A stretch of DNA of 64,000 nucleotides from NCBI GenBank assembly GCA_000002445.1, contig CP000070.1, positions 64,001 through 128,000 of the forward strand. Direction: 5' to 3'. The DNA is from Trypanosoma brucei (taxonomy: Eukaryota). The notes under the pieces were generated by a model. That model had not been told where the DNA came from and made no database searches. It saw only the letters and a list, made by a program, of their open reading frames with translations. Both the position numbers and the translations under genes were made by a program. Below are positions 14,666 through 63,541 of this stretch, one piece after another (position 1 is the stretch's first letter; each line of letters starts with the position of its first letter).

Positions 14666-15658
14666 TTAAAAATGTGCGGCAGCACTGTGAAAAAGTGCTG
14701 CAAGAAGGATCAGTAATGTGTATCCTCCTATAGATTCTGCATAGCTGCCGTCATTACCAACTTCTGCTTCCTCACCCTCATCGTCACCCAATTCCTGCAC
14801 ATGATCATCGTCAGAAATTTCCACTTTTCCTTCAGGATCCTTCTTCGGCACTTCCTCAACTTCCGTTCTTCCCGTCTTTTCCTTGTCCTCTGGAACCTCC
14901 ACGTTTCCCTCAAATTCCTCCCTCGAAATCTCTTGAACATCCGCTTCTTCCGTCTCTGCCGTCCTTTCGGCTTCCTCAGCTGCCTTGCGTGCGTTGCTTT
15001 CAGCTGCCCTTGCTGCAACTCTTGCTTCGCTGGCACGCCGCACAGCAGCCTCTAATTGATCATATTCCGCCCTGAGATCAACCATACGCGTCCTCGCGAT
15101 CCTACATATTTCACCCATGAAAATAGCACATGCGGATTCCACAGCCTGTGTCAGCACCCAGGAGTTAACTCCTCTATTTGGGAGACTGCAGCCTCTCGCA
15201 ATTCGTCTTGCAGTACTGGCGGCACTATTGTCCTCTGCAACACTTTTCAGATAATCATCAATCGGAGCGGTCTTTCCGGCTGCGAGCAGTGGGGCACGGG
15301 CCGCGTATTGCTCCACATCCGACAGGGCCGTCTTGGCGGCATTCTCCGCGCTCTCTGCTTCCTTTAGGGCAGCGCGAGCGCGTCCGACGGCCTCCTCCAC
15401 CTTGGGAGTACTCGAAAAGGCATCCTCCGCTCGTCTCACGGCATCTTGGCAACCTTCTCTCGCTTTAGAGGCATCCGAGACATTCGCTGCCGCCGACGCT
15501 TTGAGGGCCTTCACACCGAAGGGTATTCCATGCAGCGCTTCTGAAAAGAGACATGCCGCACTTACATGACTCACTGTGTTTTGAGACCCTTCCTCAATTA
15601 TGGAGTCGGCGGTGACATACGTAAGTATAGCAAGCAAGCACAAAAAACGGGCAGTCAT
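14666..15658 (-). CDS. Ala/Glu-rich GPI-anchored surface protein, copy 5, subtype A, with 1 repeat.
   Basis: 330-aa ORF. It is the closest copy to the intact COG7-like gene. Confidence 0.75.
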   Translation of the reverse strand: MTARFLCLLAILTYVTADSIIEEGSQNTVSHVSAACLFSEALHGIPFGVKALKASAAANVSDASKAREGCQDAVRRAEDAFSSTPKVEEAVGRARAALKEAESAENAAKTALSDVEQYAARAPLLAAGKTAPIDDYLKSVAEDNSAASTARRIARGCSLPNRGVNSWVLTQAVESACAIFMGEICRIARTRMVDLRAEYDQLEAAVRRASEARVAARAAESNARKAAEEAERTAETEEADVQEISREEFEGNVEVPEDKEKTGRTEVEEVPKKDPEGKVEISDDDHVQELGDDEGEEAEVGNDGSYAESIGGYTLLILLAALFHSAAAHF

Positions 15659-29675: not shown

Positions 29676-32600
29676 TTACTCGCCGTCAACGAAACGGACA
29701 TCCTTCTTTCCATACTTTTCACGTCTTCTTTGAATGGTTCGATGGAGGAAACTTTTCAACGCAGTCCTTATGGCGCTCTCGGCCTTTTCCACACTTATTC
29801 CCATGTCTTTAAGCAAATCATCTTGCTTGTAACCCATAGATCCCTCATTTCCAGCACATGGAAGAGAAATCTCCTGGTGTTTAGTTGTCATGAGTTTTTG
29901 CGGTTGCGGCCGTCCCGGATGGTCAACAGAAAATTGTTCAGCAAAGCAGATATCACCAATTGATACGACAACAGAGGCAGGAGGTGTAATGTACTGCACC
30001 CGATTGCTTAGCACCCAATAACTCAGAACCTCATCCATGGGGTATGATTTCACTTCATCAAGTAATTGAGGGGGTGGTGTGCCCTCAAAGAGAGCGAGCG
30101 CATACCTGCCAGTGCGAACCGCACCATCCTCAGGAAACATCTTCAACAACGTCCAACCCACTTGCTCGACAAGAAGTTGTCTGCCTTCGTATTTTGGTAT
30201 GGTGTCCAAGTTTGTTATTCTCAATAGATACTTTTCAGCAACGGTAAAAGGGTGCGCCTTCACCATCCTTATTGCTTTGATGGGGTCATCGAAGTGTGGT
30301 GCACCAACATCCGACGACCAGCGAAATTTTTTGGTGTATGCTATGTTATTATGACCATTTATGTTGATGGATGTAACGACAACGTAAAGAGCTTCCCTTG
30401 TGCACATACCATGTACAGCCTCCGTGAGAATAAAGAAACCACGATTGGGGTCGTACGGCACAATGCTGCTGAAGTCCCGAAAGGATTGTGACCTTTGCTG
30501 GCCAAATGCCCTCATGGGTTCACCAATATCAGTATAATGAAACGACTTGCTGGTGTCAAGTGCTTCGCGTACAGAAAACAACTCCACTTCTCCATTCGAT
30601 AGCGGAGGCTCTCCGGGGTACTCAAAGGACGGTGCGTTCGGGTCAGAACCGACACACCATGAAATAAATCCACATGGATGACATTCGGCACGTGACTTCA
30701 ACGGTTGCAGAAGCTTGTCGTAAAGCGCTGCTGCATCAAACTTTCCCTCTGCGACTGCATGTTGGCGCTGTTTGGAGCTCCTGTACGATGTAAGAATGGA
30801 GGTGGGGCCTGAGAGCCTGTCAACATGCACCGACCGCGCTTCGGGTTCTCGGGGATCGCCTAATCGGATGCGTGAAAGGAAGTTTCCGACCGGTGCTAGC
30901 GTATGGATGGGAAGACTGACGTGGCCAAACGTGGTGGGGCCACATTTTGGGTTTGTAATGTATTCGATGATAACAATGGCATAAGTGTTGTTAGTAACCA
31001 TAATATCATCAAATTTGATGTCAAAGGTTGGTGATGTACCATTCCCACCACTTTTCTGATAACCAATAGCATTTGGTGGTCTCATGAACAGCTCACAATC
31101 AGAGGAGTCATTCACCAGCCCCTTTGTTTGACGGCTGATATAGTTGACAAAGTAAACCAAAACGCGAGCACACAAACAGTTCGGTGGTAGTCCAACAATT
31201 TTGTTAACACGCAAATCCACAGACGCAAAAGCCTCCCTTTCACTTCCAATTTTACGAGAGCTCGGTGCATCGCCCTCACTGCGGAGACCAAGCAAAACAC
31301 AAGCAGATAGAGGTGAGACTCTCTCCTCCACTGGAAACCTCTGCGACCCCGAGCCACCAGTAATTTTGTCCCCATTTCCATCGTTGTTGCGACCGCGGTT
31401 ACGCGTACCCGAGGCACCATTGGTTTTGGTGTCGGAACGTTCACCTTTCGAGGAAACACAACCTCCATTTGATTGACATGTCACGGCACCGGTATGATCC
31501 CTACCATCCCTTCCGTCCATACCGCCACGTCGAAACCGCCTCAATGTTGCAGTTGAGTTCTGAGGATCTGAGGGAGATGTAGTTTCCCTTTCCTCCTTGT
31601 ATTCACGTGGATACGGCCTCAATGTTGCAGTTGAGTTCTGAGGATCTGAGGGAGATGTACTTTCCCTTTCCTCTCTGTATTCACGTGGATACGGCCTCAA
31701 TGTTGCAGTTGAGTTCTGAGGATCTGAGGGAGATGTAGTTTCCCTTTCCTCCTTGTATTCACGTGGATACGGCCTCAATGTTGCAGTTGAGTTCTGAGGA
31801 CCTGAGGGAGATGTAGTTTCCCTTTCCTCCTTGTATTCACGTGGATACGGCCTCAATGTTGCAGTTGAGTTCTGAGGATCTGAGGGAGATGTAGTTTCCC
31901 TTTCCTCCTTGTATTCACGTGGATACGGCCTCAATGTTGCAGTTGAGTTCTGAGGATCTGAGGGAGATGTAGTTTCCCTTTCCTCCTTGTATTCACGTGG
32001 ATACGGCCTCAATGTTGCAGTTGAGTTCTGAGGACCTGAGGGAGATGTAGTTTCCCTTTCCTCCTTGTATTCACGTGGATACGGCCTCAATGTTGCAGTT
32101 GAGTTCTGAGGATCTGAGGGAGATGTAGTTTCCCTTTCCTCCTTGTATTCACGTGGATACGGCCTCAATGTTGCAGTTGAGTTCTGAGGATCTGAGGGAG
32201 ATGTAGTTTCCCTTTCCTCCTTGTATTCACGTGGATACGGCCTCAATGTTGCAGTTGAGTTCTGAGGATCTGAGGGAGATGTAGTTTCCCTTTCCTCCTT
32301 GTATTCACGTGGATACGGCCTCAATGTTGCAGTTGAGTTCTGAGGATCTGAGGGAGATGTAGTTTCCCTTTCCTCCTTGTATTCACGTGGATACGGCCTC
32401 AATGTTGCAGTTGAGTTCTGAGGATCTGAGGGAGATGTACTTTCCCTTTCCTCTCTGTATTCACGTGGATACGGCCTCAATGTTGCAGTTGAGTTCTGAG
32501 GATCTGAGGGAGATGTAGTTTCCCTTTCCTCCTTGTATTCACGTGGATACGGCCTCAATGTTGCAGTTGAGTTCTGAGGACCTGAGGGAGATGTACTTTC

Positions 32601-34391
32601 CCTTTCCTCTCTGTATTCACGTGGATACGGCCTCAATGTTGCAGTTGAGTTCTGAGGACCTGAGGGAGATGTACTTTCCCTTTCCTCCTTGTATTCACGT
32701 GGATACGGCCTCAATGTTGCAGTTGAGTTCTGAGGACCTGAGGGAGATGTAGTTTCCCTTTCCTCTCTGTATTCACGTGGATACGGTTTCAATATTGCAG
32801 TTGAGTTCTGAGGACCTGAGGGAGATGTAGTTTCCCTTTCCTCCCTGTATTCACGTGGATACGGCCTCAATGTTGCAGTTGAGTTCTGAGGACCTGAGGG
32901 AGATGTAGTTTCCCTTTCCTCTCTGTATTCACGTGGATACGGTTTCAATATTGCAGTTGAGTTCTGAGGACCTGAGGGAGATGTACTTTCCCTTTCCTCC
33001 TTGTGTGAAAAACTTTTTTTTGTCACTGGCGGGACTGGGGAGGCTGCTAATACCACTTTTCCGTTTTCGTCATAATTTTGTCGTTGCGTTTTAGTGTGTT
33101 GAATTGTCTCAGATGCTTTATCGACCCCTGTTTTAGCAGACATGCGGGGTCTAAGGTTTACTGCAGAAACACTGGGATCGTTCATGTTTTCTACCGTTTT
33201 GTTCGCAGCTGGCGGTTGCGACTCGAGACGATTCAAGTACGCTTCAGCTTCGCCTAAATCATCTGATGCTTTATCGGATATAAACCCTCGGAGTATAGGA
33301 TCATCTAAATTTATGTGCTCCACGACCAACGCAACCGCCATATCCACCGGTGGTTTCCTAAGTTTGCTTACCCATGGTCCTTCATACAAAGCATTCACAG
33401 ATGACCATGCGAACAAGCGCCCGCGGTATAGCAAATGTATTATGAACACGTGTAAGTCGTTGCATTCCGTTACGAAGAATTCCACTGGTTGCCCGAAAGA
33501 GGCATCAAATGATTTATTGTGCTCGCGCTTCATGTTGATGCTTCTGTATAGCCTGTGCCTAACTTCATGCAGGACTCGGGGCCCTTGACTTGAAACTACC
33601 TTGTACTCTTCCACACAAACGGTAAATTCGGTAGCTGGTGCGGTGATATCCATATCCTCAATGCCTTTAATGTTTAAACCGTATTTTCCCACACACAGCG
33701 ATGAGGTTTTAACCATTCGATTGAACTCAATAACGCAAACCTCTTCCCTGTTCCGGTTCCGTGTTGCCTCTCCACTGTTTAGTAGTTGATCCACCGCATC
33801 CGCATCCGCAGCCTCACCGAAACCGTCAAACAGCTCTTTTTCCCACTTTCCCGTTTCCGCCTTTCTGACTTTTGCCGGTGGAAGAGTCTCATCGTGATTA
33901 GGTCTGTCGTGCTGCTTTTCTTTCAGAGGTCGAGCCGTTATCGCGGATCTAAGCATGTCTCGTATCAAAGCAATATCTTTTCTCGTGTCCGCAATCACCC
34001 TTTCGTTAAGGGCTGCAGACTCCATTTGCTGAAGTGCCCGCTCCCGCATGTAAAGTTCCCTCGATGGAAGAAAAAGATTCAACCTTTCATTGGGTAGAGG
34101 CCTCAAATGTAACTGGCTGCTGGTCGAACTCACATCACGTCGATTCGTAGAGTTGTGGTTTGCACCTCCAATAATCTTCGGTAAGTCGAATGTGACCTTC
34201 TGAGAAGTTTCCTCATTGTAAAAAGAAACATCACACGACTTAACGGGCGTGGAGACTGCGAAAAGTTGAGACGCCGGAGACTCTTGCAGGTATTTGCCTT
34301 CAATTAGTAAGAAGCACTGAGGGACATGCTGTTGAGGCTTTAAAAAGCGTGAGTCTTCACTTATTCTGCCACAGTTGTCGCATTCACGCAT
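29676..34391 (-). CDS. Large hypothetical protein with about 19 tandem 26-aa Ser/Thr/Pro-rich repeats (YPREYKEERETTSPSDPQNSTATLRP).
   Basis: 1571-aa ORF. The central ~1.5 kb is a near-perfect 78-bp tandem repeat. Unique N- and C-terminal domains flank it. Confidence 0.65.
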   Translation of the reverse strand: MRECDNCGRISEDSRFLKPQQHVPQCFLLIEGKYLQESPASQLFAVSTPVKSCDVSFYNEETSQKVTFDLPKIIGGANHNSTNRRDVSSTSSQLHLRPLPNERLNLFLPSRELYMRERALQQMESAALNERVIADTRKDIALIRDMLRSAITARPLKEKQHDRPNHDETLPPAKVRKAETGKWEKELFDGFGEAADADAVDQLLNSGEATRNRNREEVCVIEFNRMVKTSSLCVGKYGLNIKGIEDMDITAPATEFTVCVEEYKVVSSQGPRVLHEVRHRLYRSINMKREHNKSFDASFGQPVEFFVTECNDLHVFIIHLLYRGRLFAWSSVNALYEGPWVSKLRKPPVDMAVALVVEHINLDDPILRGFISDKASDDLGEAEAYLNRLESQPPAANKTVENMNDPSVSAVNLRPRMSAKTGVDKASETIQHTKTQRQNYDENGKVVLAASPVPPVTKKSFSHKEERESTSPSGPQNSTAILKPYPREYREERETTSPSGPQNSTATLRPYPREYREERETTSPSGPQNSTAILKPYPREYREERETTSPSGPQNSTATLRPYPREYKEERESTSPSGPQNSTATLRPYPREYREERESTSPSGPQNSTATLRPYPREYKEERETTSPSDPQNSTATLRPYPREYREERESTSPSDPQNSTATLRPYPREYKEERETTSPSDPQNSTATLRPYPREYKEERETTSPSDPQNSTATLRPYPREYKEERETTSPSDPQNSTATLRPYPREYKEERETTSPSDPQNSTATLRPYPREYKEERETTSPSGPQNSTATLRPYPREYKEERETTSPSDPQNSTATLRPYPREYKEERETTSPSDPQNSTATLRPYPREYKEERETTSPSGPQNSTATLRPYPREYKEERETTSPSDPQNSTATLRPYPREYREERESTSPSDPQNSTATLRPYPREYKEERETTSPSDPQNSTATLRRFRRGGMDGRDGRDHTGAVTCQSNGGCVSSKGERSDTKTNGASGTRNRGRNNDGNGDKITGGSGSQRFPVEERVSPLSACVLLGLRSEGDAPSSRKIGSEREAFASVDLRVNKIVGLPPNCLCARVLVYFVNYISRQTKGLVNDSSDCELFMRPPNAIGYQKSGGNGTSPTFDIKFDDIMVTNNTYAIVIIEYITNPKCGPTTFGHVSLPIHTLAPVGNFLSRIRLGDPREPEARSVHVDRLSGPTSILTSYRSSKQRQHAVAEGKFDAAALYDKLLQPLKSRAECHPCGFISWCVGSDPNAPSFEYPGEPPLSNGEVELFSVREALDTSKSFHYTDIGEPMRAFGQQRSQSFRDFSSIVPYDPNRGFFILTEAVHGMCTREALYVVVTSININGHNNIAYTKKFRWSSDVGAPHFDDPIKAIRMVKAHPFTVAEKYLLRITNLDTIPKYEGRQLLVEQVGWTLLKMFPEDGAVRTGRYALALFEGTPPPQLLDEVKSYPMDEVLSYWVLSNRVQYITPPASVVVSIGDICFAEQFSVDHPGRPQPQKLMTTKHQEISLPCAGNEGSMGYKQDDLLKDMGISVEKAESAIRTALKSFLHRTIQRRREKYGKKDVRFVDGE
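31511..32996 (-). repeat. 78-bp coding tandem repeat, about 19 copies, with minor D/G, K/R, S/T and TL/IL variants.
   Basis: Period counted directly: tgaggatctgagggagatgtagtttccctttcctccttgtattcacgtggatacggcctcaatgttgcagttgagttc is 78 nt. Confidence 0.9.
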
Positions 34392-39326: not shown

Positions 39327-42300
39327 TCAACTTTCACTACTAGCTGGCTTACGGCCAAACAGCCGGTCCCGTTGCTGCACAATCACTTCTAGATTGGGAG
39401 CTTCATCTATTGTGAACTCTTGTGGACACTTAAATGGTTCGGGCCGCCAACGTCGCTCAGTGCCCAACACAACCCGGTCAGCATCGGGAACAACAGGGGG
39501 AACGAAGGAACATGCGAAGGGCACGTGATTAAGTTCTTCCGGCAGACGTGTTGAACTGCCAGTCCCCGAAAGGGCAGCGATGCCACCATACTTTGGAACT
39601 CGTCGTATTGCCCAGTCACTCCATACAATGCGGTCGTCCATACCAGAGGGTGGACACGCAGGCACAGGAGGCAGCAAATCTTTGCGAGTGTAACGTGAAG
39701 GAACTACGCTCTCTGTTGAGTCATCATCATCACCCAGAGGAGGGGAACCCAAGGGAAGCCTTTCCGCACATCTATCTACAATGCGGGAAAAGACACTTGT
39801 CTCTGTGATAACTGGCTTTTGTGGAGGCGCTGATTTCACTTCAGTCTTTTTCTTGAAATCATCCAGCGCAGGGAATGGCGGTGGGGGTGGAGGAATGGCA
39901 GGTCTGAAGTTCGCCGCTCGGACAGCAGCTGCATTGTCGTTCCCACCATCCAGCATTGAAAACAGGTTTGGTGCCCTGATATGTGGCGGGCGTGGAAGGG
40001 TGAAACTTTCGATAGGCTCTGTATTCAGTGGAACAGCGAGACCAATAACAGTTGACGTTACTTCCCACCAAAGTTTAAACGCCTCAACTTCAGCGTCTGG
40101 AGATGCGGGCAACTTCCGTAGTTCGTCAACAGGTGGTAAAGCCGCACACCCGTGTAATGCAAAAGAAGGCCCCTTTCCCATCCCATCTGTCGAGGGGTCA
40201 CAATCCAAAATGGGTCTACCGGCCATGTTTGTAACGATAACAGACCCATCTGCACGGCGGAATAAACCACGTGATACCCACTGACCCTGTGACCAGCAGC
40301 CGGCATACACTTCTCGATTTCTGCCGTAGCGCCTTATTGCAAGCATGCGGCCGCACTTCAACCTCTGGAAGCAGCGATCACACACGCGCTGCTGTCCGTC
40401 CATTTTGAAATGTGGGGGCATAGAGGCACGCGACTGTGAGCAAGCATCGCAAAAAACCTCACCACAAAGACGACAATGATGACGCCGAATGAAAAAGGTA
40501 AATGTAGCACTGCAGAGAGAACAGTGCGATGCCTTGTCGTCGTTCACCATTACAGGTAACATGAAGCAGTCGTCCCGCTCGTTTCCGTTGGCATATGTAG
40601 TTTCATACACAGATTCCGTGGCTGCATCATGAATTGCCACAGAACCACATAAAACACCATTACGCCATTCACCCACAACTGCACATTCACCTGAAAATAA
40701 CTCAAACCCATGACCATGTTGTTTACCGGCGACGAAGTTACCATAATAGACGCTACCTCCAAGAAGCAATTTCCCCATGCCTTCGATACGACCCGACGTG
40801 AACTCACCGCTGTACAAAAATCCGTCATCGTCCTGTAAAATCCCTGAACCGTGCCACACACCATGTTTCCACTCACCATTGTAGCGAGACTTTCCATCTT
40901 TACCACAACCGTATGACTGTCCACGGCCATGTTGACGACCCTTGGAGTCCAACTCTCCATGATATTTGATTGTCTTGAGGGCTCCGTTCTCCCACGTACC
41001 GGCGTAAGCAGTACCATCCGAGCAGCTGTACGCACCTTCACCGTGCCACTTGTCATCTGCAAACCCCCCAGTGTAGGTTTCACCGTTCCAAAGAATCTGC
41101 GTACCGAAACCATGCCTTCGACCCTCCTTGAACCCTCCTAGGTAGTATTCATTTTTTCCCCACCAAAGGGAACCGAAAATGTGTGGGATGGCGGAGGAAA
41201 TGTAACCCTCATAAATAATATACTCATCCTCCTTCGTTTGTGCCCGTGGGTCACAGGTCCCCTGCTCCGTGCCGGTAGTGCACCACAAATCTGGATTCAC
41301 ACTTTCTTCCTTGCCTTCTGGTGTGCTTGGAACTGGAGTTTTCCCATCTTCATCTTCACCACCACCAACAGCACCCGTTTCTTCACCCTCCTGTGAGGCA
41401 CAGTTACAATACCGCATGGGAAGCCAAAGTGTGATGAATTGGGCTTCGAGTTGCAACGTACTAATACAAGTTGTACATGCCTGTAACTGCGATGGAGAGT
41501 TAACTACAGCAGGTGCTTCTGCTTCACTGTCGCCAATAGGCGTTGCCTTACACTGTCGCATCAAAGCCTCCAGCTTCGGGTGATCGCGCAGGTCCAAAGT
41601 GTTGTAACAGGAGTTGCAGCAAACCCGATCACAAATAGCACATTTTAGTTCCTTACGAAAAAATGTGAAGGGTTTCTCGCACACGGCGCAGACTTTGCCA
41701 GTACCGCTTTCTGAGAGAGGTGCTTCACTAATATTTTTTTCGGCGTTCTGCTTTAGAATTTCCCCGTGGTACGGAGCATTAGCTCGATGAGGGAAAACGA
41801 GTTTTGGGTGGCTCTGCACCCAATCGGCACGCATACAGACTCCGGAGTTAAATAGGACAACCCCACTGCCCTCTTGCAGTCCAAGACACATCGTTACAGG
41901 TGGTTTCCCAATAACTACATCGTTCTGCTTTTTCTTCTTTACCTTTGCGACTACGGCAGTGACGTCTGGGGCACTAATGGCAGCTGCTGCACATTGAGCC
42001 ACAAGTAACTGGCATGACGAATAGGGAACGACGGTCGGCCTCCATTCACCACGAAGCAGATAATGCTCATGGCAAACAGTGGTCAGAACTTCACATTCCT
42101 TTTCCCCCTTTAAAGGTTCGTTGCGAAAGAAGCTCGTGAAGAGGGACATCAATGTGTTCGAGCCATCCCTCTGCTCCTCCTTCTGTGACTCAACCTGGTG
42201 TGCCGTATTGGCTGTAGCCAAACATTCCTCGGCAGGGTTGGTGACATTTTTCGTGCTGACGGCGTGGTAGAGCCCAACACCAATAGGAGAATCCAAGCGC

Positions 42301-44015
42301 CAGTCACCAGAAAAGTATGAACCGTCTGTGAACCACATACGACCACCAGGTCCATTGCGAAAACCGTCTTTGAAGCTCCCCACGTATAAATCACCGGATG
42401 GGAACTCCCACGAGCCGGAGTCGCACGAAAGTGTGTCATTTATCCAGTTGCCTATCAGGACGTGACCACACAACCGCAGGACTCCGGGCCCATGACGCAC
42501 GCCCTGGCAAAATACGCCAAAGTGCTCCAACAAAGGAGATGTAGTGACATCCCCAGAAGGGGCTCCATCTCCACTCTTACCAGAGTTACCACCTGCCGGC
42601 AAACTACCGGGAATGCCACCACCTTTACTACCCTTACCCTTATGCGCCAGCAAGTTGCGGAAGACTAAACTTCCAACACCATTGAAACTGACACCATCCC
42701 ATTCACCATCGTAGCCATCGACAAGAACGTCGTTGCGCCAGATTCCCGCCTGAATGGAGCCGTTCTTTCGTTGAAGGATTCCCTCACCCTCCCGGACGTC
42801 GTTAACAAAATTACCGCTATACTCCGAGCCATCGGCATACCGTAAATTTCCGCCCCCGTGACGCATGTTTTTCACGAACGAACCAAAGAAGAAATCACCG
42901 TTTTCGTACCAAACGAGGCCGCGCCCCTGCCGCATCTCACCAACCCACTCTCCCTGGTAGCATATTCCACCGTCGGCGGGCACCCGGTGCCAAAACATTG
43001 TTCCGTGCTTCCGCTCCCCGTTTTCGAAAACGCCCACAAACGTGGACACACCCGGGTACTTCACCACACCTTTGCCGTGTATGAGACCTTGCACAAAGTC
43101 TCCCTCTACAATCGCACCAAGTTTATGCAAGGTTGACTTACCTTCACCATGGCGTAGTCCACCTTTCCACATTCCTTCGTATATGTCACCATTCTTGTAG
43201 CGCATAGTGCCGCGCCCCTCGATCTTATCGTTACTGAAGTTGCCAAAGTATTCATCTCCATTGGGGTAACGCATGCAGCCTTCACCGTCACGCTTACCGC
43301 GCACCAACATCCCCTTAAACTCCCCACCATCCACATAACTAACCTTTCCGCCTCCATGCCGCTCATCCTTCAACCATTCACCGTCGTACACCTCGCCACT
43401 CGCACACTCAAGGCGCCCACGTCCGTGACGAGAATTCGAATTGAACTCCCCCTTGTAAACGTCTCCGTTAGCGTATCGCAAAATACCACGTCCGTGCCGG
43501 TGATAAGTGTGATGAAAATCCCCTTCATACTCCTTTGGTGGGTGGGTGAGTTCGTACTGTGAAACAGGAACAACACCGCGTTTGGATACTTCTCCCGGCC
43601 TGCGCTTATAAGTTATTTTTCCGCGACCGCACATCCTGCCACTGTTGAACTCACCCTCATATGTAAAACGGGTTGTATTAAGTACACCCTCTCCATGAAA
43701 AGCGCCGTTAGCCCAACGCCCCCCATACCGGTCCCCGCTGCCATATATGGATGAAGTATCCTTGAAGATAACAATTCCAAGACCGTGTGGTTTGTCGAGC
43801 AGCATGTCACCATAATATTCACTTCCATCCGGCAGTGTGTGGGGTGACAGGTTTTCTTGTTTTGCCGGATCAAACTCGGTTACCTTCTGAAGAGTCACTG
43901 GTAGGGTGAGGACAGGGGAGGCGTTAAAAAAAGCTGGCGGAGCAGGTGTGGGGTACTCGTTCCGTGTTAAAATCTCGGAATTATTACTACTACTATTGTT
44001 ATTGTTATCGGGCAT
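39327..44015 (-). CDS. FYVE zinc-finger and MORN-repeat giant protein.
   Basis: 1562-aa ORF. Two MORN blocks contain over 20 repeats (YEGEW/F..G..HG.G). FYVE-like Cys clusters CAVCEKPFTFFRKELKCAICDRVCCNSC and CSLCSATFTFFIRRHHCRLCGEVFCDAC lie between them. Confidence 0.7.
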   Translation of the reverse strand: MPDNNNNSSSNNSEILTRNEYPTPAPPAFFNASPVLTLPVTLQKVTEFDPAKQENLSPHTLPDGSEYYGDMLLDKPHGLGIVIFKDTSSIYGSGDRYGGRWANGAFHGEGVLNTTRFTYEGEFNSGRMCGRGKITYKRRPGEVSKRGVVPVSQYELTHPPKEYEGDFHHTYHRHGRGILRYANGDVYKGEFNSNSRHGRGRLECASGEVYDGEWLKDERHGGGKVSYVDGGEFKGMLVRGKRDGEGCMRYPNGDEYFGNFSNDKIEGRGTMRYKNGDIYEGMWKGGLRHGEGKSTLHKLGAIVEGDFVQGLIHGKGVVKYPGVSTFVGVFENGERKHGTMFWHRVPADGGICYQGEWVGEMRQGRGLVWYENGDFFFGSFVKNMRHGGGNLRYADGSEYSGNFVNDVREGEGILQRKNGSIQAGIWRNDVLVDGYDGEWDGVSFNGVGSLVFRNLLAHKGKGSKGGGIPGSLPAGGNSGKSGDGAPSGDVTTSPLLEHFGVFCQGVRHGPGVLRLCGHVLIGNWINDTLSCDSGSWEFPSGDLYVGSFKDGFRNGPGGRMWFTDGSYFSGDWRLDSPIGVGLYHAVSTKNVTNPAEECLATANTAHQVESQKEEQRDGSNTLMSLFTSFFRNEPLKGEKECEVLTTVCHEHYLLRGEWRPTVVPYSSCQLLVAQCAAAAISAPDVTAVVAKVKKKKQNDVVIGKPPVTMCLGLQEGSGVVLFNSGVCMRADWVQSHPKLVFPHRANAPYHGEILKQNAEKNISEAPLSESGTGKVCAVCEKPFTFFRKELKCAICDRVCCNSCYNTLDLRDHPKLEALMRQCKATPIGDSEAEAPAVVNSPSQLQACTTCISTLQLEAQFITLWLPMRYCNCASQEGEETGAVGGGEDEDGKTPVPSTPEGKEESVNPDLWCTTGTEQGTCDPRAQTKEDEYIIYEGYISSAIPHIFGSLWWGKNEYYLGGFKEGRRHGFGTQILWNGETYTGGFADDKWHGEGAYSCSDGTAYAGTWENGALKTIKYHGELDSKGRQHGRGQSYGCGKDGKSRYNGEWKHGVWHGSGILQDDDGFLYSGEFTSGRIEGMGKLLLGGSVYYGNFVAGKQHGHGFELFSGECAVVGEWRNGVLCGSVAIHDAATESVYETTYANGNERDDCFMLPVMVNDDKASHCSLCSATFTFFIRRHHCRLCGEVFCDACSQSRASMPPHFKMDGQQRVCDRCFQRLKCGRMLAIRRYGRNREVYAGCWSQGQWVSRGLFRRADGSVIVTNMAGRPILDCDPSTDGMGKGPSFALHGCAALPPVDELRKLPASPDAEVEAFKLWWEVTSTVIGLAVPLNTEPIESFTLPRPPHIRAPNLFSMLDGGNDNAAAVRAANFRPAIPPPPPPFPALDDFKKKTEVKSAPPQKPVITETSVFSRIVDRCAERLPLGSPPLGDDDDSTESVVPSRYTRKDLLPPVPACPPSGMDDRIVWSDWAIRRVPKYGGIAALSGTGSSTRLPEELNHVPFACSFVPPVVPDADRVVLGTERRWRPEPFKCPQEFTIDEAPNLEVIVQQRDRLFGRKPASSES

Positions 44016-57220: not shown

Positions 57221-58627
57221 TCAGTACAGAAGAGAGGAGAGGCGCAACCGGGCCTCTTGACTTTTTGGATCATCGTGAAACAGTTGCAACACACCCAGTA
57301 GACATGTTTTAACCTGACGGACACGCTTGGCACTGAGGCATTCCTCTTTATTCGAACCCTGTGCCCGCCGTGCCTGTGGAATGTATAACTTCAGTAGGTT
57401 AAACATTTCCTCAACTTCTGAACTGGGATACCGCTCCGGTACTAAGCGGGCGTCTACCAATTCGTCAATCCAACGAAGAAGCTTTGCAACATGCGCCTCG
57501 CCACCGCTTTCACTTTCCAATTTCCGCTCCAAGTGCAGCTCAGCACGAAGAACCAACGCCTCACACAACGATATGAGCCGCTTAACAGTGTTGTCACCCA
57601 ATGCAGGTTCAAAGTCTCGCTGAATAGCCTTTACTGCGAAGAGGACATTTTCTGCCGATATGTTGCCAATCGTTGCGTGAACACGCGCCAAAAACAATGC
57701 CTCCAGCCCCGATAATACCGCAGTAGCGCTATATTGTGAAGATTTGTAATACCGCTCCATCATTTCAGCTTCTCCAAGTCGCCGCACATCCACGCCAAGT
57801 TCCCTGCGAAGCTCCTGCAGCTCATCGAAGGCCTTTTTCTTGGCTTGTTGAATGGTTTTGCGTAGACCGTCCAGTTTCTCGCTTTCCTCCGGAAGTCGAA
57901 TGCACTCGGTACCGAGAAGCGCCGCCATAATTTGGTTCTGAAGGTATTGAGTAGAAGCACCGTGAAGAAGGTCTGCGCCTGCCGCAGCCGGTAAAGGGTT
58001 TTGTTTGTTAGGGGAACCTCCCATCAAGTCAACGTTCAACTGCTGTTGATAATGGTCCAAAAACTTGCGCAAGATGCCTTCGAGTCGAGTCTCAGTCACC
58101 TGGCCAGTGACCTTGTCAATTATTGTGCCCTGCATAATGAAGTACGTAATGGGCAACTTGGCACGCTCAACAGAAAAAGCGGACGCGAGGTTCCGGTTCT
58201 CGTCGGCGTTAATTGTGCAAAGTTTCAACCATGCCCGCTGCATTGATGCTTCTGTACCCTCTCCATTCTTACCCCCACATGCCTGCTCGTTCAGTCGATC
58301 AACCAGACGCTCCGTGTGAGCCAAATAAGCGTTGCAGCCACTGCTATCTGGCCTGTAGTATACAAGGCAAATAGCCTGTTGGGACTGAATAACTTCCCTC
58401 TCAAAAGAAGAAGCGTCAGTTTTGTACGCAATGCTCCGGGACGAAACACAAATGGGATTTCTTCCCATAATCTGTGCGCAGCGACTGCCTGATATGGAGC
58501 ATCTGATAAACCTATACGAGTATGTGCCAGAACAATGCGAGCCGCAAGCGCCGCCGAGGGCAGAAAGCCTAAAACCTGCTACCAAGTGACGGCGTCGTGG
58601 AGCAGACAACATATAAGCTTCACCCAC
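57221..58627 (-). CDS. Hypothetical protein with a possible thioredoxin-like fold, probably organellar.
   Basis: 468-aa ORF. Arg/Ser-rich N-terminus. The segment FEREVIQSQQAICLVYYRPDSSGCNAY...LPITYFIMQGTIIDKVTG looks thioredoxin-like but lacks a CxxC. Confidence 0.4.
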   Translation of the reverse strand: MGEAYMLSAPRRRHLVAGFRLSALGGACGSHCSGTYSYRFIRCSISGSRCAQIMGRNPICVSSRSIAYKTDASSFEREVIQSQQAICLVYYRPDSSGCNAYLAHTERLVDRLNEQACGGKNGEGTEASMQRAWLKLCTINADENRNLASAFSVERAKLPITYFIMQGTIIDKVTGQVTETRLEGILRKFLDHYQQQLNVDLMGGSPNKQNPLPAAAGADLLHGASTQYLQNQIMAALLGTECIRLPEESEKLDGLRKTIQQAKKKAFDELQELRRELGVDVRRLGEAEMMERYYKSSQYSATAVLSGLEALFLARVHATIGNISAENVLFAVKAIQRDFEPALGDNTVKRLISLCEALVLRAELHLERKLESESGGEAHVAKLLRWIDELVDARLVPERYPSSEVEEMFNLLKLYIPQARRAQGSNKEECLSAKRVRQVKTCLLGVLQLFHDDPKSQEARLRLSSLLY

Positions 58628-59399: not shown

Positions 59400-61001
59400 T
59401 TAGAGCCAGTCCTTTTCGGACTCACCCCGAACGCATTTGGCTATCGGAAACCGCGGCACATCCTGTGACGAAAGTTCCTGATACTGAACTGTTAAATACT
59501 TACCTAGTAGACGGTCTCTTTCGGCCCATAGTTCCAACCGCCGCTTTGTTGTAGTCTTTGGTGTTGCATTGAAGCGAATCCCAGTTGATGTTTCACACAC
59601 AAACGCGCCGAGACCACCCTCAAACTTGCCATTGCCCGGAAGAAAGTCGACAATGCGGTACTCCGCATCATGCATGTACTTATACTTAAGAAGACCGAGA
59701 CTTCGTTTGCCATGTTCGTAAGGAAACTTTGGTCTACGAATGATTACCCCTTCATAACCTTGCGAACACGCCTTCTCCAATACACTCTCCACCTCATCTG
59801 GACTCACAAGTGTGGCGGGGACGTGGTAGAGTTTTGGTATCTTTTTCCTGCTCGACAATTCCTCCTTTTCAAGCTGATGGTTTCGCCTTCCGTTTGGTTT
59901 CATCGTATCAAAAACACGATCTGCGCCACTGTGAGGTATGAGTTCCTTCAGTAAACGGTAGCGTTCGCTAAAAGGGGCGTCCGGCGATGAGAGCTGATCT
60001 GAAGCCATGATGTCAAATGCAAAATATTCTAGGAGTTTCGCCTGTTTCCTCCGCGTTGTTTGTGTCGTAAACTTTTCCAAACGGCGCACAAGCCCACTAA
60101 GCCTCTCGAAACCGCAGTGTGGAGCAAACAGCTCCCCATCTAACAACAAAGATGGATCTGCCTTGAACAGCGGCATAGCGTGTGGCACCAAACCATGGCA
60201 ACACTCAAGAAGAATCCCACTCCGCGAAAAAAACTGCAATTTCTTTTGGGATTTATTGTAACCAATTAAACAGCGAATTCCATCTATCTTTGGTGAAACC
60301 AGAAGTGATTCCTGCTCCTCCGTGTCAGCCGGATGAAGTAGTTCCTCAGCAACTAGCTCCCATCTTTGTGCAAGCATGGGAAGAATGTTACGTCCCTCCC
60401 ACTCGGGGTTGCTGTGCAGAACACTTTTATAATTTGTGTGAGTCATTCGTGGTGCTCTCAAACTGTTCACATCCTCCAGCTCCAGATCCTCCTCATTTGT
60501 AGCATCCGTTGGTGAAGTTGTTATCCCCACATCTGTGTTATCTCCCTCGCTCATCTTGCCATTAATTCTTTCCGGACCTTCATTTCTAGTTGAACTGATC
60601 CGCCGCTGCTCTTTTCCGCACAATGGACACGTCCCATGCTGGTCAATAAATCTCGCAATACTCATCTCAAACTCCTGAAGGCACTGGCTGCAACGCCACA
60701 CCGCCGACTTTACACATGTCGGGGCCACGTGATGTGGAGTTAACATGACGGTTCCCCACGATGGACCCACCCAACAGGCTGCAAGATGGGGAAAAGCACT
60801 TTCAATGGTGGTATTTTTCATTGCGTGATACCGCTCCACCTGCTCTGGTGTACGCGGCCTCCCAACACCAAAAAAAAGCGAAGGATCCTTCGGAAGAGTT
60901 GTGAGCTGCGGACGCCGCCATAAATTAGAAATCCGCCACATGTCTAAAGGCGATGAGGTGACAAAAAAGGGAGGAGGGATTTCGAAAAGGTGTTTAAACA
61001 C
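59400..61001 (-). CDS. ATP-dependent DNA ligase, small kinetoplast-type (LIG k-like), paralogue 1.
   Basis: 533-aa ORF. Nucleotidyltransferase motif I SPKIDGIRCL, motif III LLDGELFA, motif IV YEGVIIRRP and motif V LLKYK. Upstream Cys4 cluster CSQC...CPLC. Confidence 0.65.
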   Translation of the reverse strand: MFKHLFEIPPPFFVTSSPLDMWRISNLWRRPQLTTLPKDPSLFFGVGRPRTPEQVERYHAMKNTTIESAFPHLAACWVGPSWGTVMLTPHHVAPTCVKSAVWRCSQCLQEFEMSIARFIDQHGTCPLCGKEQRRISSTRNEGPERINGKMSEGDNTDVGITTSPTDATNEEDLELEDVNSLRAPRMTHTNYKSVLHSNPEWEGRNILPMLAQRWELVAEELLHPADTEEQESLLVSPKIDGIRCLIGYNKSQKKLQFFSRSGILLECCHGLVPHAMPLFKADPSLLLDGELFAPHCGFERLSGLVRRLEKFTTQTTRRKQAKLLEYFAFDIMASDQLSSPDAPFSERYRLLKELIPHSGADRVFDTMKPNGRRNHQLEKEELSSRKKIPKLYHVPATLVSPDEVESVLEKACSQGYEGVIIRRPKFPYEHGKRSLGLLKYKYMHDAEYRIVDFLPGNGKFEGGLGAFVCETSTGIRFNATPKTTTKRRLELWAERDRLLGKYLTVQYQELSSQDVPRFPIAKCVRGESEKDWL

Positions 61002-62092
61002 CCTTCACTCCCCCAACCACCACGCAATCCGTCACGTATATCTATAAACGCCCCCGTTGCTTTGCGGGGTTATGCGCTTCAGAAGAAAATAATTATTATT
61101 ATTGTTATAGAAATGAGAAGGGGAAAGGGGAAAGAAGAAAGAAGGAAAGCAAGAAATGATATATTTGAAATATACTCCGTGTTTACACCCGCATGCAACT
61201 AGTCATTTCAGTTGATTTCGTTGTTGTATTGACCTACGCACTTTGGCAGTAAAGCCCCCTCGGAAGAAAATTTCTTTTTCTCCGTTGGTAGGAAAAAAAA
61301 GATGAGCAGGAAGGTACAAATAATAAAAAGTGGTACAAATATAACATAACTTAATAATAATGATAAAAAAGAAAAAGAGAAACAGTTGCTTCGGACTGTT
61401 AGAAAAAGTAACGTGCCGAGCACTCAATAATTTCTCTACCACTTCCGCACACAGTCACACAACAAACATATATGAAAAACCTTAGTGAAACGAATTGCGG
61501 TGCACAACCACAATGTCTTCAAAAGTCAACACATATAGTTTGGTCCACCGTGTAAACTTCTCTTCCCAATAATCTCGGCTCTCAAAATACCAATTAATAA
61601 TTGCATACGCTAAATTTTTCCCTTTAGCTGTCATTCCCTCTGTTGTCGTCCCTTCTTCGTTTGTTTTTTAAATTATGCTGCACAACTCCTGCTGCCATTT
61701 GTGAAGAAAAGAAAAACATATGAAGAGTGTGGCCAAACAACTTTCACTCGTGAGACAAAAACATGTGGGAATGACTGCAGGGGAATGAGATCATAGAGAC
61801 AATCAGTGAGAAAGTGGTCACGGAATACGGCGCCGGATTTAATTTTTGTAGTAAAAGAAAAGAGGAAGAAAAACGAGATCATACAAGCTGGACGTCATAG
61901 TTACGCAGCTACGAATACAGACAGGTACGTGAACATCCACGCGTGTTCATGCAAGTGGGTTTTAGAAATGGTACAAAATTTAATCATCAAAATCATTTAG
62001 CCACCATCTGCAACATATCATTGAGTAGTCACGAATGCACGTGTACACCAAGAAACACCCATTAAGTGAATGTATGAAACAACATACTGCTG

Positions 62093-63541
62093 TTAAACCC
62101 AATCACTACCAGTCTTTGTGCCTCGTACGCACTTCCCAATAGGAAACCGTGGGACACCATTTGTTGAAAGCTCTTGATACTGCACAGTGAGCATTTTCCC
62201 CTTGTACACATTCAGTCGATGCCACATCTCACGTTTCCTCTCTTCTGTCGTCGCTGGCGCTACGGTGAAGCGGTGACCGGCACGTGTTTGACAGACGAAT
62301 GCACCCAAGCAACCGCGCCACTTTCCCTTCCCTTCCACGCCGTCAACAATAATATATTCGCTGTCTTGCATAAGTTTGTACTTCAGCAAGTTGGGCGAGC
62401 GGGCCCCATATGCGTAACCAGGCACTGCAGCTGAGGCGCCACCACTACTCGAAACAGAAGTCATGCATTTATTGTCCTCAATACCATTACGGCGAATCAT
62501 GATACCTTCATACCCTCGATCAACATTGAGTCTCAGCAGACGGTCTATATCCGATTTTTTTGCCGACATGACGGGAACTAATTTGACTACTTTTCTGCGG
62601 CCCTGTCCCTTTCCGGAGTTGATCTTTTGCATCAAGTCACAAAGATGTTTGTAGCGCTGTCCAAAGGGCACTACCGTCATGTGAGGAAATTCTTTTGCGT
62701 AAAGAAGATCGAATACATGATATTGCAACTGCTGCTGCACCTTCTCAATTCCCGCTGTGCGGTGTTGCCTCGTTGTTCGTATGGCTGATGTCAGCTGTTC
62801 AAAGTCACTTGCATCATGATTGTACAATTCACCATCTAACACTAACATATTGTCCTTTTCGAATAGAGGTCGCAGCTGCGGTTCAATGTGATCACAACAA
62901 TCAAATAACATCCCGGAACGGCTAAAGAAACTCAAGCACCTATCTCTCAAATTCCACGCAACGACACAGCGTACGCCGTCGAGTTTGGGGGAGACAAAAA
63001 GCTGTTCATCATTTGATATCCTTTTAACCTCTTTATCATAATTGCGCGCCAGCATTGGAAGAAGGTTTCGTGTTTCCGATACACGCAGGTATCCGTTATC
63101 GGCAATACTATTCTTTACCCTACTAGCATTCGGTGCATCGAGTATTGCGAGAGAATTATCGGGTCTACAACGATGTTTAACTGTTGCTGCTAATGTGTTG
63201 TCTGACGTTCTGGAACTACTGGCGCTTCTTTTTCTTGAACACGTCAATGTTGGCATGCGGGAACACTTCGGGCAGGCACCACCGGCAGCCACGTGGAGGT
63301 CAATACGTTTCGGGTGTTGATGCTCACAATAAGGACAGCGCCACCACGCTAGTTTACGGCTAGAAGGCAACACATGTTGGGGTTGCAGTAACTTATTGCA
63401 GGCAGCTGTGATCCACGTTTGCGCAATGGTGGGGTGAAACTGTGCCAAGTTTTTCGCCAATGATGCGCTGCGGGAGGAGCGGGAGAGGAAGGGCACCGTG
63501 GTGGCGAAGAGTGACGACAAACATGGGCGACTAAACCGCAT
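62093..63541 (-). CDS. ATP-dependent DNA ligase, small kinetoplast-type (LIG k-like), paralogue 2.
   Basis: 482-aa ORF. Motif I SPKLDGVRCV, motif III LDGELYN, motif IV YEGIMIRRN and motif V LLKYK. Upstream Cys4 cluster CPYC...CPKC. About 35-40% identical to its neighbour across the catalytic core. Confidence 0.65.
   Translation of the reverse strand: MRFSRPCLSSLFATTVPFLSRSSRSASLAKNLAQFHPTIAQTWITAACNKLLQPQHVLPSSRKLAWWRCPYCEHQHPKRIDLHVAAGGACPKCSRMPTLTCSRKRSASSSRTSDNTLAATVKHRCRPDNSLAILDAPNASRVKNSIADNGYLRVSETRNLLPMLARNYDKEVKRISNDEQLFVSPKLDGVRCVVAWNLRDRCLSFFSRSGMLFDCCDHIEPQLRPLFEKDNMLVLDGELYNHDASDFEQLTSAIRTTRQHRTAGIEKVQQQLQYHVFDLLYAKEFPHMTVVPFGQRYKHLCDLMQKINSGKGQGRRKVVKLVPVMSAKKSDIDRLLRLNVDRGYEGIMIRRNGIEDNKCMTSVSSSGGASAAVPGYAYGARSPNLLKYKLMQDSEYIIVDGVEGKGKWRGCLGAFVCQTRAGHRFTVAPATTEERKREMWHRLNVYKGKMLTVQYQELSTNGVPRFPIGKCVRGTKTGSDWV

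What the first reader, a model, noticed from the sequence alone, without database searches (positions are those of the whole stretch)
59400..63541. Adjacent paralogous small ATP-dependent DNA ligases with N-terminal Cys4 zinc-ribbon-like modules
Both ORFs have ligase motifs I (KxDGxR), III (DGEL), IV (EGxxxR) and V (LLKYK). Each has a C-x2-C...C-x2-C cluster upstream of the adenylation domain (CSQC...CPLC and CPYC...CPKC). This tandem pair resembles the kinetoplast mitochondrial ligases LIG k-alpha and k-beta described in Crithidia and T. brucei, which supports a kinetoplastid origin. The two N-terminal regions have diverged, which suggests sub-functionalisation.
Basis: partly seen in the sequence, partly recalled or inferred. 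Interest (0 to 1): 0.5.

Follow-up and report, generated by a model that had tools for sequence, protein, structure and literature searches.

The report
Known trypanosome mitochondrial DNA ligase pair

Summary
Two minus-strand ORFs encode proteins identical, residue for residue, to T. b. brucei TREU927 XP_845684.1 (59400-60941, 513 aa) and XP_845685.1 (62093-63541, 482 aa). T. equiperdum records name the same or near-identical proteins LIG k-beta and LIG k-alpha. Published gene IDs are Tb927.7.600 and Tb927.7.610.

Both proteins have the same layout: a basic N-terminus, a DUF4379 Cys4 "treble-clef" zinc module, a linker (predicted disordered in k-alpha), an ATP-dependent DNA ligase adenylation domain and an OB_2 domain. 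They are invariant in 33 kinetoplastid homologues. The AlphaFold model's best structural matches are all DNA ligases, not RNA ligases or capping enzymes.

The alpha-then-beta tandem is conserved in T. cruzi and Leptomonas. The k-alpha 3' spacer carries three copies of UUGUACC, the published PUF9 motif.

Two corrections. k-beta starts at ATG 60941, not the mechanical GTG at 61001. The zinc modules are conserved between the paralogues; only the presequences and linkers have diverged.

This is already known and of low interest. The one open point is what the DUF4379 module does.

The parts
62093..63541 (-). LIG k-alpha coding sequence (482 aa plus stop), Tb927.7.610
   Evidence: ORF. It is 482/482 identical to TREU927 XP_845685.1. 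The T. equiperdum protein differing at one residue is annotated LIG k-alpha.
59400..60941 (-). LIG k-beta coding sequence (513 aa plus stop), Tb927.7.600. The mechanical ORF extends to a GTG at 61001, but the annotated start is ATG 60941.
   Evidence: Exact look-up matches XP_845684.1 / AAZ12125.1 / SCU65942.1, annotated 'LIG k-beta'. ORF.
63458..63541 (-). k-alpha N-terminal basic segment (about residues 1-28), a putative mitochondrial presequence
   Evidence: 5 K/R, 0 D/E and 10 S/T in the first 30 residues; the first acidic residue is at position 73. pLDDT is below 50 for residues 1-26. Targeting itself is inferred from composition and published localisation.
63257..63427 (-). k-alpha DUF4379 Cys4 zinc module (residues 39-95; C69, C72, C90, C93)
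   Evidence: PF14311 scores 48.6 bits, E=1e-12. The four Cys plus W67 and G88 are invariant in 33 homologues. pLDDT is about 87-95. There is a sequence match to T. brucei mt-SAF33, 6sga_Fd.
63119..63241 (-). k-alpha linker (residues 101-141), predicted disordered
   Evidence: Most of residues 101-141 have pLDDT below 50. The longer motif-defined linker (68 aa, between the last zinc cysteine and the P-x-L-A motif) has net charge +7, and this linker is net basic in all 28 alpha-type sequences measured.
62489..63058 (-). k-alpha adenylation (nucleotidyltransferase) domain, residues 162-351. The motif I lysine K186 is at 62984-62986.
   Evidence: PF01068 E=1.4e-17. Motifs located. K186, D188, G189 and R191 are invariant.
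62123..62335 (-). k-alpha OB-fold domain (residues 403-473)
   Evidence: PF14743 DNA_ligase_OB_2 E=1e-20. Fold matches to ASFV, Pmar, Chlorella virus and Lig E ligases.
60612..60746 (-). k-beta DUF4379 Cys4 zinc module (C84, C87, C105, C108 in 513-aa numbering)
   Evidence: PF14311 scores 30.8 bits against a cut-off of 24.5. It aligns with the k-alpha module.
59679..60380 (-). k-beta adenylation domain. The motif I lysine K218 is at 60288-60290.
   Evidence: PF01068 E=3.3e-21, covering the full profile 1-204. Motifs located.
59427..59639 (-). k-beta OB-fold domain
   Evidence: PF14743 E=3.3e-19.
61970..61976 (-). UUGUACC (PUF9 recognition motif), copy 1, in the k-alpha 3' spacer
   Evidence: The motif is defined in PMC2727004.
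61313..61338 (-). UUGUACC copies 2 and 3 (61332-61338 and 61313-61319) in the k-alpha 3' spacer
   Evidence: Three sense copies lie in 1091 nt against 0.06 expected, Poisson P about 4e-5.
61077..61157 (-). Polypyrimidine tract followed by the first AG (61077-61078) upstream of k-beta; a candidate trans-splice acceptor region
   Evidence: Read directly from the sequence. The function is inferred from general kinetoplastid mRNA processing and was not tested.

Best explanation
The region holds the two nuclear-encoded kinetoplast (mitochondrial) DNA ligase genes of Trypanosoma brucei, arranged head to tail in one polycistronic unit: LIG k-alpha (Tb927.7.610) upstream and LIG k-beta (Tb927.7.600) downstream. 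Each protein is a minimal, phage/Lig E-like two-domain ATP-dependent DNA ligase. The motif I lysine is adenylated, AMP is transferred to the 5' phosphate at a nick, and the 3' OH attacks to seal it; the OB domain closes over the DNA. This core is joined by a linker (predicted disordered in k-alpha) to an N-terminal DUF4379 Cys4 zinc module and a basic presequence for mitochondrial import. According to the literature, k-beta acts at the antipodal sites, sealing most nicks in newly replicated minicircles. k-alpha acts across the kDNA disc, closing the last nicks late in S phase, and its mRNA is stabilised by PUF9 through UUGUACC elements in the 3'UTR. Shown here: gene identity, domain architecture, catalytic motifs, fold, conserved synteny and the PUF9 motifs. 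Taken from the literature: localisation, the RNAi phenotype and PUF9 regulation. Inferred: the zinc module is a tethered nucleic-acid-binding (or localisation) module that stands in for the DNA-binding domain these minimal ligases lack.
For: Both products match TREU927 proteins exactly. The T. equiperdum names LIG k-alpha and k-beta appear. The domain architecture PF14311 + PF01068 + PF14743 is present in both. Catalytic motifs were located and are invariant in 33 homologues. The AlphaFold model has pLDDT 82 and pTM 0.77, and its top 50 PDB matches are all DNA ligases: ASFV E=3e-22, Pmar-Lig, Chlorella virus, Lig E, T4. The core is about 30% identical over 96% of its length to phage two-domain ligases, with 332 phage records matched. 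The alpha-then-beta tandem is conserved in Leptomonas pyrrhocoris and T. cruzi. All 22 ORFs of 200 aa or more lie on one strand, and the MISP array lies upstream as published for chromosome 7. Three UUGUACC copies lie in the k-alpha 3' spacer, P about 4e-5, matching the published PUF9 target LIGKA/Tb927.7.610. For the zinc module, a related DUF4379 protein, mt-SAF33, binds immature 9S rRNA helices in the same organelle. Multi-copy DUF4379 proteins sometimes carry HTH or endonuclease-like domains, though apart from one HTH_3 match these hits are weak.
Against: Nothing argues against the identity. The primary biochemical papers (Downey 2005; Sinha 2004, 2006) are not in the held library, so enzymatic activity and localisation are cited second-hand from a review and the PUF9 paper. 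No targeting predictor was available. The k-beta N-terminus has an acidic residue at position 19, so its presequence is less classical. The DNA-binding role of the zinc module is pure inference. In mt-SAF33 the same module sits in a ribonucleoprotein, so it could equally mediate protein contacts.
Confidence: 0.97

Rival explanations
1. The ORFs encode RNA ligases or mRNA capping enzymes rather than DNA ligases.
For: Weak secondary Pfam hits on k-beta only: mRNA_cap_enzyme at 28.9 bits and RNA_ligase at 23.3 bits. These are expected cross-hits within the covalent nucleotidyltransferase superfamily.
Against: Both hits fall below the curated cut-offs (29.6 and 27). DNA_ligase_A_M and DNA_ligase_OB_2 are far above theirs. 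All sequence matches to solved ligase-type structures are DNA ligases, as are the top 50 fold matches. Published RNAi of k-alpha causes kDNA loss.
Confidence: 0.01
2. One member of the pair is a degenerating, catalytically dead duplicate.
For: The paralogues are only 34% identical. k-alpha carries a 20-residue insertion between motifs IV and V, of which residues 356-370 have pLDDT below 50.
Against: Both keep every catalytic motif, including the motif I lysine. Both types are conserved as intact ORFs in tandem from Trypanosoma to Leptomonas. The literature gives each a distinct localisation and cell-cycle expression.
Confidence: 0.02
3. The DUF4379 zinc module is not a nucleic-acid-binding element. 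Instead it is a protein-protein docking or localisation module that places each ligase in its sub-kinetoplast compartment.
For: mt-SAF33, the solved DUF4379 protein of the same organelle, is one of many assembly factors packed into a large protein-rich complex. The module is joined to the core by a linker of about 40-110 residues, predicted disordered in k-alpha, as a docking domain often is.
Against: The module is conserved between alpha and beta, which localise differently, so it cannot by itself specify the compartment. mt-SAF33 is listed among the factors bound to rRNA helices h22/h23. One multi-copy DUF4379 protein carries an HTH_3 domain, and others have weak endonuclease-like matches.
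Confidence: 0.35

Closest known systems
Trypanosoma brucei LIG k-alpha (Tb927.7.610) and LIG k-beta (Tb927.7.600); Crithidia fasciculata LIG k-alpha and k-beta
   Same: These are the same genes. The protein sequences are identical to the TREU927 records. The tandem order and the PUF9 motifs in the k-alpha 3'UTR also match.
   Different: Nothing differs. The only addition here is an explicit description of the DUF4379 module and linker, which the held literature does not discuss.
Minimal two-domain ATP-dependent DNA ligases with the OB_2 domain: bacterial Lig E (6gdr, 4d05, 8u6x), Chlorella virus ligase (2q2t) and phage ligases such as Salmonella phage 7-11
   Same: They share the NTase + OB_2 core, all catalytic motifs and the fold (Foldseek E about 1e-16 to 1e-18). 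Identity to phage ligases is about 30% over the whole core.
   Different: Those enzymes have no N-terminal domain. LIG k adds a presequence, a Cys4 DUF4379 module and a long flexible linker. k-alpha also has a 20-residue insertion between motifs IV and V.
ASFV DNA ligase (6imj/6imk), Prochlorococcus Pmar-Lig (6rar) and T4 DNA ligase (6dt1)
   Same: These are the best structural matches (E=3e-22 to 5e-17). Each is a small ligase core with an extra N-terminal DNA-binding domain that helps encircle the nick (the role of those domains is from my own knowledge of the structures).
   Different: Their N-terminal domains are helical or mixed DNA-binding domains packed against the core. They are not a zinc module on a disordered tether. 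No homology between those domains and DUF4379 was detected.
Human DNA ligase III (the mitochondrial ligase of animals), with its N-terminal PARP-like zinc finger
   Same: It is a functional analogue: a mitochondrial DNA ligase with an N-terminal zinc finger that senses nicks. This comparison is from my own knowledge and was not tested.
   Different: The zinc-finger family is unrelated (PARP-type versus DUF4379). The core is a three-domain DBD-NTase-OB type. Eukaryotic Lig I and Lig IV appear only as lower-ranked fold matches, and Lig III does not appear in the top 50.
T. brucei mt-SAF33 (6sga chain Fd), a DUF4379 protein of the mitoribosomal small-subunit assemblosome
   Same: It has the same zinc module family (phmmer E=1.8e-5 to k-alpha and 1.4e-3 to k-beta) and works in the same organelle.
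   Different: It is a 143-residue stand-alone protein with no ligase domains, and it acts in ribosome assembly.

Membership tests
ATP-dependent DNA ligase (covalent nucleotidyltransferase superfamily) | Motif I KxDGxR with the adenylatable lysine | tested here: met
   KLDGVR at residue 186 (k-alpha) and KIDGIR at 218 (k-beta). K, D, G and R are invariant in 33 homologues.
ATP-dependent DNA ligase (covalent nucleotidyltransferase superfamily) | Motifs III, IIIa, IV and V in the canonical order | tested here: met
   DGEL, F-D (F277/D278 in k-alpha; FAFD in k-beta), EGxxxRR and LLKYK are all present and invariant or nearly so.
ATP-dependent DNA ligase (covalent nucleotidyltransferase superfamily) | Adenylation domain plus C-terminal OB fold, scoring above curated thresholds | tested here: met
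   PF01068 scores 76.4 and 64.5 bits (cut-off 26.2). PF14743 scores 69.1 and 74.0 bits (cut-off 28).
ATP-dependent DNA ligase (covalent nucleotidyltransferase superfamily) | Three-dimensional fold matches solved DNA ligases better than RNA ligases or capping enzymes | tested here: met
   k-alpha model pLDDT 82. The top 50 Foldseek PDB hits are all DNA ligases. The model was built on the T. equiperdum sequence, which differs at one residue (I360 versus M360) in a low-confidence loop.
ATP-dependent DNA ligase (covalent nucleotidyltransferase superfamily) | ATP-dependent self-adenylation and nick sealing | not testable with these tools
   This is biochemistry. To my knowledge it is reported in Sinha 2004 and Downey 2005, but those papers are not held.
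Kinetoplastid mitochondrial ligases LIG k-alpha / LIG k-beta | Orthology or identity with the characterised T. brucei genes | tested here: met
   Exact matches to XP_845684.1 and XP_845685.1. Gene IDs are given.
Kinetoplastid mitochondrial ligases LIG k-alpha / LIG k-beta | Conserved alpha-then-beta tandem on one strand | tested here: met
   Found in the window, in Leptomonas pyrrhocoris L001 and in T. cruzi L002. In the second T. cruzi locus, L003, no Pfam hits are on record for the downstream gene.
Kinetoplastid mitochondrial ligases LIG k-alpha / LIG k-beta | N-terminal mitochondrial targeting signal | tested here: inconclusive
   The k-alpha N-terminus is basic, S/T-rich and free of acidic residues. 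The k-beta N-terminus is basic but has D19. No targeting predictor was available.
Kinetoplastid mitochondrial ligases LIG k-alpha / LIG k-beta | Localisation to the kDNA disc (alpha) or the antipodal sites (beta) | not testable with these tools
   Published (review PMC10719067).
PUF9 regulon (applies to k-alpha mRNA) | UUGUACC in the 3'UTR | tested here: met
   Three sense copies lie in the 1091-nt spacer against 0.06 expected. The motif and the LIGKA target are described in PMC2727004. The poly(A) site was not mapped, so whether all three copies fall within the UTR is inferred.
DUF4379 (PF14311), probable treble-clef zinc finger | Profile match above the gathering score | tested here: met
   48.6 bits (alpha) and 30.8 bits (beta) against a cut-off of 24.5. 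An exhaustive search with the module alone finds 5,887 representative proteins. All eight top hits that were scanned are DUF4379 repeat proteins.
DUF4379 (PF14311), probable treble-clef zinc finger | Four zinc-ligand cysteines (CxxC ... CxxC) | tested here: met
   C69, C72, C90 and C93 are invariant in 33 of 33 homologues.
DUF4379 (PF14311), probable treble-clef zinc finger | Treble-clef fold and actual zinc binding | tested here: inconclusive
   The model gives a confident beta-hairpin followed by a helix (E64-68, E75-79, H80-85; pLDDT about 90), which is compatible with a treble clef. The module alone was not compared with known treble-clef structures, and metal binding cannot be tested.
RNA ligase / mRNA capping enzyme | Profile match above the curated threshold | tested here: not met
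   PF09414 scores 23.3 bits (below 27) and PF01331 scores 28.9 bits (below 29.6), on k-beta only; k-alpha has neither.

The most novel reading that the evidence does not exclude
The conserved DUF4379 Cys4 module may be a zinc-dependent nick, gap or kDNA-binding domain. It would functionally replace the DNA-binding domain or latch of other small ligases. Together with the linker, which is net basic in every alpha-type sequence measured, it would determine whether the ligase works on the kDNA disc or at the antipodal sites. That would give DUF4379, a widespread domain of unknown function, its first assigned activity.
Probability: 0.3. Interest if true: 0.3.

Novelty: already known. Interest (0 to 1): 0.08.

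Why it matters
These ligases matter biologically. k-alpha depletion causes loss of kinetoplast DNA, and both enzymes are highly divergent from host ligases, so they have been discussed as drug targets. All of that is established, and finding the genes again in the reference sequence adds nothing. The only forward-looking point is that the N-terminal DUF4379 zinc module and the alpha-specific basic linker have no tested function in the literature I could search. Working that out would explain how a minimal phage-like ligase core is adapted to a catenated DNA network, and it would annotate a domain found in thousands of uncharacterised proteins.

Tried and rejected
1. I looked for the S-phase cycling octamer (C/A)AUAGAA(G/A), reported for the early-cycling group that includes LIGKB. 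There are no copies in the flanks of either ligase gene, and the window-wide count is at chance (9 against 9.6 expected). It gives no support for that element here, in T. brucei, in this exact form.

2. I tried to read the primary papers (Downey 2005, PMC1087824; Sinha 2004, PMC384752). Neither is held, so function is cited through PMC10719067 and PMC2727004.

3. I tested whether linker charge separates the paralogues, basic for alpha and acidic for beta. It is only partly upheld. All 28 alpha-type linkers are basic. The beta linkers are -8 to -1 in four Trypanosoma sequences but +6 in Leptomonas. It is therefore not a general rule for beta.

4. I tried to name the multi-repeat DUF4379 proteins. 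All eight looked up are anonymous metagenomic sequences.

5. I first read the top hit P0001 (T. equiperdum) as 100% identical. It is actually 481/482 (I360 versus M360). The exact match is TREU927 P0126.

6. A literature search for DUF4379, and for 'zinc finger' together with LIG k, found no discussion of this module on the ligases.


Full report
**Observation.** The window holds two long minus-strand ORFs at exactly the reported coordinates: 62093-63541 (482 aa, ATG start) and 59400-61001 (533 aa, from a mechanically chosen GTG).
- In the 482-aa protein: KLDGVR (residue 186), DGEL (236), EGIMIRR (345), LLKYK (385), CPYC (69) and CPKC (90).
- In the other protein (513-aa numbering): KIDGIR (218), DGEL (268), FAFD (307), EGVIIRR (397), LLKYK (417), CSQC (84) and CPLC (105).

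Pfam places three domains in both proteins, all above their curated thresholds:
- DUF4379, "probable treble clef zinc finger": 48.6 and 30.8 bits, cut-off 24.5.
- DNA_ligase_A_M: E=1.4e-17 and 3.3e-21.
- DNA_ligase_OB_2: E=1e-20 and 3e-19.

The two proteins are 34% identical over nearly their full length, E=4e-77.

**Identity.**
- The 513-aa product that starts at ATG 60941 is an exact match to T. b. brucei TREU927 XP_845684.1/AAZ12125.1. It also matches T. equiperdum SCU65942.1, annotated "mitochondrial DNA ligase homolog, LIG k-beta".
- The 482-aa product is 482/482 identical to TREU927 XP_845685.1/AAZ12126.1. It differs at one residue (M360 versus I360) from the T. equiperdum protein annotated "LIG k-alpha".
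- A recent review and the PUF9 paper give the gene IDs as Tb927.7.610 (LIG k-alpha) and Tb927.7.600 (LIG k-beta).

The context agrees with this.
- All 22 ORFs of 200 aa or more are on the minus strand, as in a kinetoplastid polycistronic unit.
- The low-coordinate end of the window carries five GARP-family paralogues. These correspond to the published MISP array Tb927.7.360-440 on chromosome 7. One is a 382-aa first member, the published length of MISP360.

The window is therefore T. brucei chromosome 7, from about Tb927.7.360 to Tb927.7.610.

**Anatomy.** An alignment of 33 kinetoplastid homologues shows the following residues to be invariant (k-alpha numbering):
- the four cysteines C69, C72, C90 and C93, plus W67 and G88;
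- motif I: K186, D188, G189 and R191;
- motif III: D236, G237, E238 and L239;
- F277 and D278;
- E345 and G346;
- L385, K387 and K389;
- a C-terminal P464-R465-F466 ... R473-G474 segment.

The set is mostly alpha-type, with three clear beta-type members.

An AlphaFold2 model of k-alpha built on this alignment is confident overall: pLDDT 82, pTM 0.77. Its parts are:
- residues 1-26, low confidence, the putative presequence;
- a well-folded zinc module at about 30-100, with a beta-hairpin at 64-79 followed by a helix at 80-85;
- a linker at 101-141, most of it low confidence and likely disordered;
- a folded NTase + OB core from about residue 148;
- a low-confidence loop at 356-370, which is part of a 20-residue insertion relative to k-beta.

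The k-alpha N-terminus has 5 K/R, no D/E and 10 S/T in its first 30 residues. The k-beta N-terminus is basic but has an Asp at position 19. This composition is compatible with mitochondrial presequences, but no targeting predictor was available.

It is not met.
- RNA_ligase and mRNA_cap_enzyme appear only as sub-threshold secondary hits, and only on k-beta.
- Apart from the hit of the zinc module to mt-SAF33, all PDB sequence matches are ATP-dependent DNA ligases.
- The top 50 Foldseek matches of the model are all DNA ligases. ASFV ligase leads (E=3e-22), followed by Prochlorococcus Pmar-Lig, Chlorella virus ligase, Lig E and T4 ligase.
- The k-alpha core (residues 150-482) aligns over about 96% of its length at about 30% identity to two-domain ligases of many phages; 332 records match.

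The core thus belongs to the minimal NTase + OB_2 class, not the three-domain Lig I/III/IV class.

**Conservation of the pair.** In Leptomonas pyrrhocoris and in T. cruzi the alpha gene is followed directly, on the same strand, by a second DUF4379 + ligase + OB_2 gene of beta size (498 and 510 aa). The duplication therefore predates the split between Trypanosoma and the Leishmaniinae, and gene order has been kept.

**Regulation.** PUF9 binds and stabilises LIGKA (Tb927.7.610) mRNA in S phase, and UUGUACC is the enriched 3'UTR motif (PMC2727004). The 1091-nt spacer downstream of k-alpha holds three sense-strand UUGUACC copies, at 61970-61976, 61332-61338 and 61313-61319. The whole window has eight on both strands, which is the chance level. 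The expectation for the spacer is 0.06 copies, giving a Poisson P of about 4e-5. None occurs in the k-beta 3' spacer or in the k-alpha 5' flank. A long polypyrimidine tract followed by an AG at about 61157-61077 is the likely trans-splice acceptor region for k-beta. I read this from the sequence and the function is inferred. The exact Crithidia-type cycling octamer was not found near either gene.

**How it works.**
- Shown here: both genes encode intact, catalytically complete ATP-dependent DNA ligases of the minimal type, each with an added conserved zinc module.
- From the literature: k-beta localises to the antipodal sites and is thought to seal most minicircle gaps together with Pol beta. 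k-alpha localises across the kDNA disc and is thought to close the final nicks together with Pol beta-PAK. k-alpha depletion shrinks and then eliminates the kDNA. The two mRNAs peak at different times.
- Inferred: the DUF4379 module, on its flexible tether, provides extra nucleic-acid contact, or docking, for a core that has no DNA-binding domain.

The hints for that last inference are indirect.
- The only solved relative of the module, mt-SAF33 of the same organelle, is listed among factors bound to immature 9S rRNA helices.
- An exhaustive search with the module alone finds 5,887 representative proteins. The best carry 6-16 tandem copies. One carries an HTH_3 domain, and three have weak restriction-endonuclease-like matches (MTES_1575, DUF559).
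- The linker is net basic in all 28 alpha-type sequences measured. It is acidic or neutral in four Trypanosoma beta sequences but +6 in Leptomonas beta, so charge is not a clean discriminator.

It is supported. "Resembles LIG k-alpha/k-beta, kinetoplastid origin" is correct, and in fact understated. Sub-functionalisation is documented in the literature. Three corrections apply:
- The k-beta start is ATG 60941, not the GTG at 61001.
- The Cys4 module is classed as a treble-clef domain (DUF4379), not a zinc ribbon.
- The module is conserved between the paralogues; the presequence and linker are what diverged.

**Novelty and verdict.** This is already known. These are annotated, experimentally characterised genes in a reference genome. 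Interest is low. One modest open point remains. In the literature I could search, nobody discusses the DUF4379 module on these ligases, and its function is untested.

Noticed in passing
window 1972-15658, minus strand: There are five paralogous GARP-family (PF16731) ORFs, 64-99% identical to one another: 1972-3120 (382 aa), 5132-6202, 8835-9746, 11754-12665 and 14666-15658. Unrelated ORFs lie between them. This matches the published MISP array (Tb927.7.360-440) of metacyclic invariant surface proteins.
   Followed up: partly
window 6477-7775 versus 15933-18287, minus strand: The 432-aa ORF at 6477-7775 is 98% identical to the C-terminal 427 residues of the 784-aa COG7-like ORF at 15933-18287. 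It is a truncated recent duplicate embedded in the MISP array, presumably carried along by the array's segmental duplication.
   Followed up: no
whole window: All 22 ORFs of 200 aa or more are on the minus strand, and GC skew is negative in all but one 2-kb bin. The window is a single directional (polycistronic) gene cluster with no strand switch.
   Followed up: partly
window 62432-62491, minus strand (k-alpha residues 351-370): k-alpha has a 20-residue insertion between motifs IV and V that is absent from k-beta. Residues 356-370 of it have pLDDT below 50. The single difference from the T. equiperdum protein (M360 versus I360) lies in this stretch.
   Followed up: partly
k-alpha 63119-63241; k-beta about 60390-60611, minus strand: The linker between the zinc module and the ligase core is net basic in all 28 alpha-type homologues measured (+1 to +21). 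It is acidic or neutral in four Trypanosoma beta-type proteins (-8 to -1) but +6 in Leptomonas beta. This may relate to the disc versus antipodal localisation, but that was not tested.
   Followed up: partly
proteins P0128-P0275 (hits to window 63242-63457): The DUF4379 module occurs in 5,887 representative proteins. The top hits are anonymous metagenomic proteins with 6-16 tandem copies. One carries an HTH_3 domain, and three have weak MTES_1575 or DUF559 endonuclease-like matches. This repeat-protein class appears uncharacterised.
   Followed up: partly
window 57221-58627, minus strand: The gene immediately downstream of k-beta (468 aa) has only sub-threshold thioredoxin (18.6 bits, cut-off 23.5) and leucine-zipper matches. 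Its function is unknown.
   Followed up: no
window 39327-44015, minus strand: A 1562-aa ORF combines many MORN repeats with FYVE zinc fingers. The similarly sized neighbour at 29676-34391 (1571 aa) has no Pfam match and is not a paralogue of it by BLASTP.
   Followed up: no
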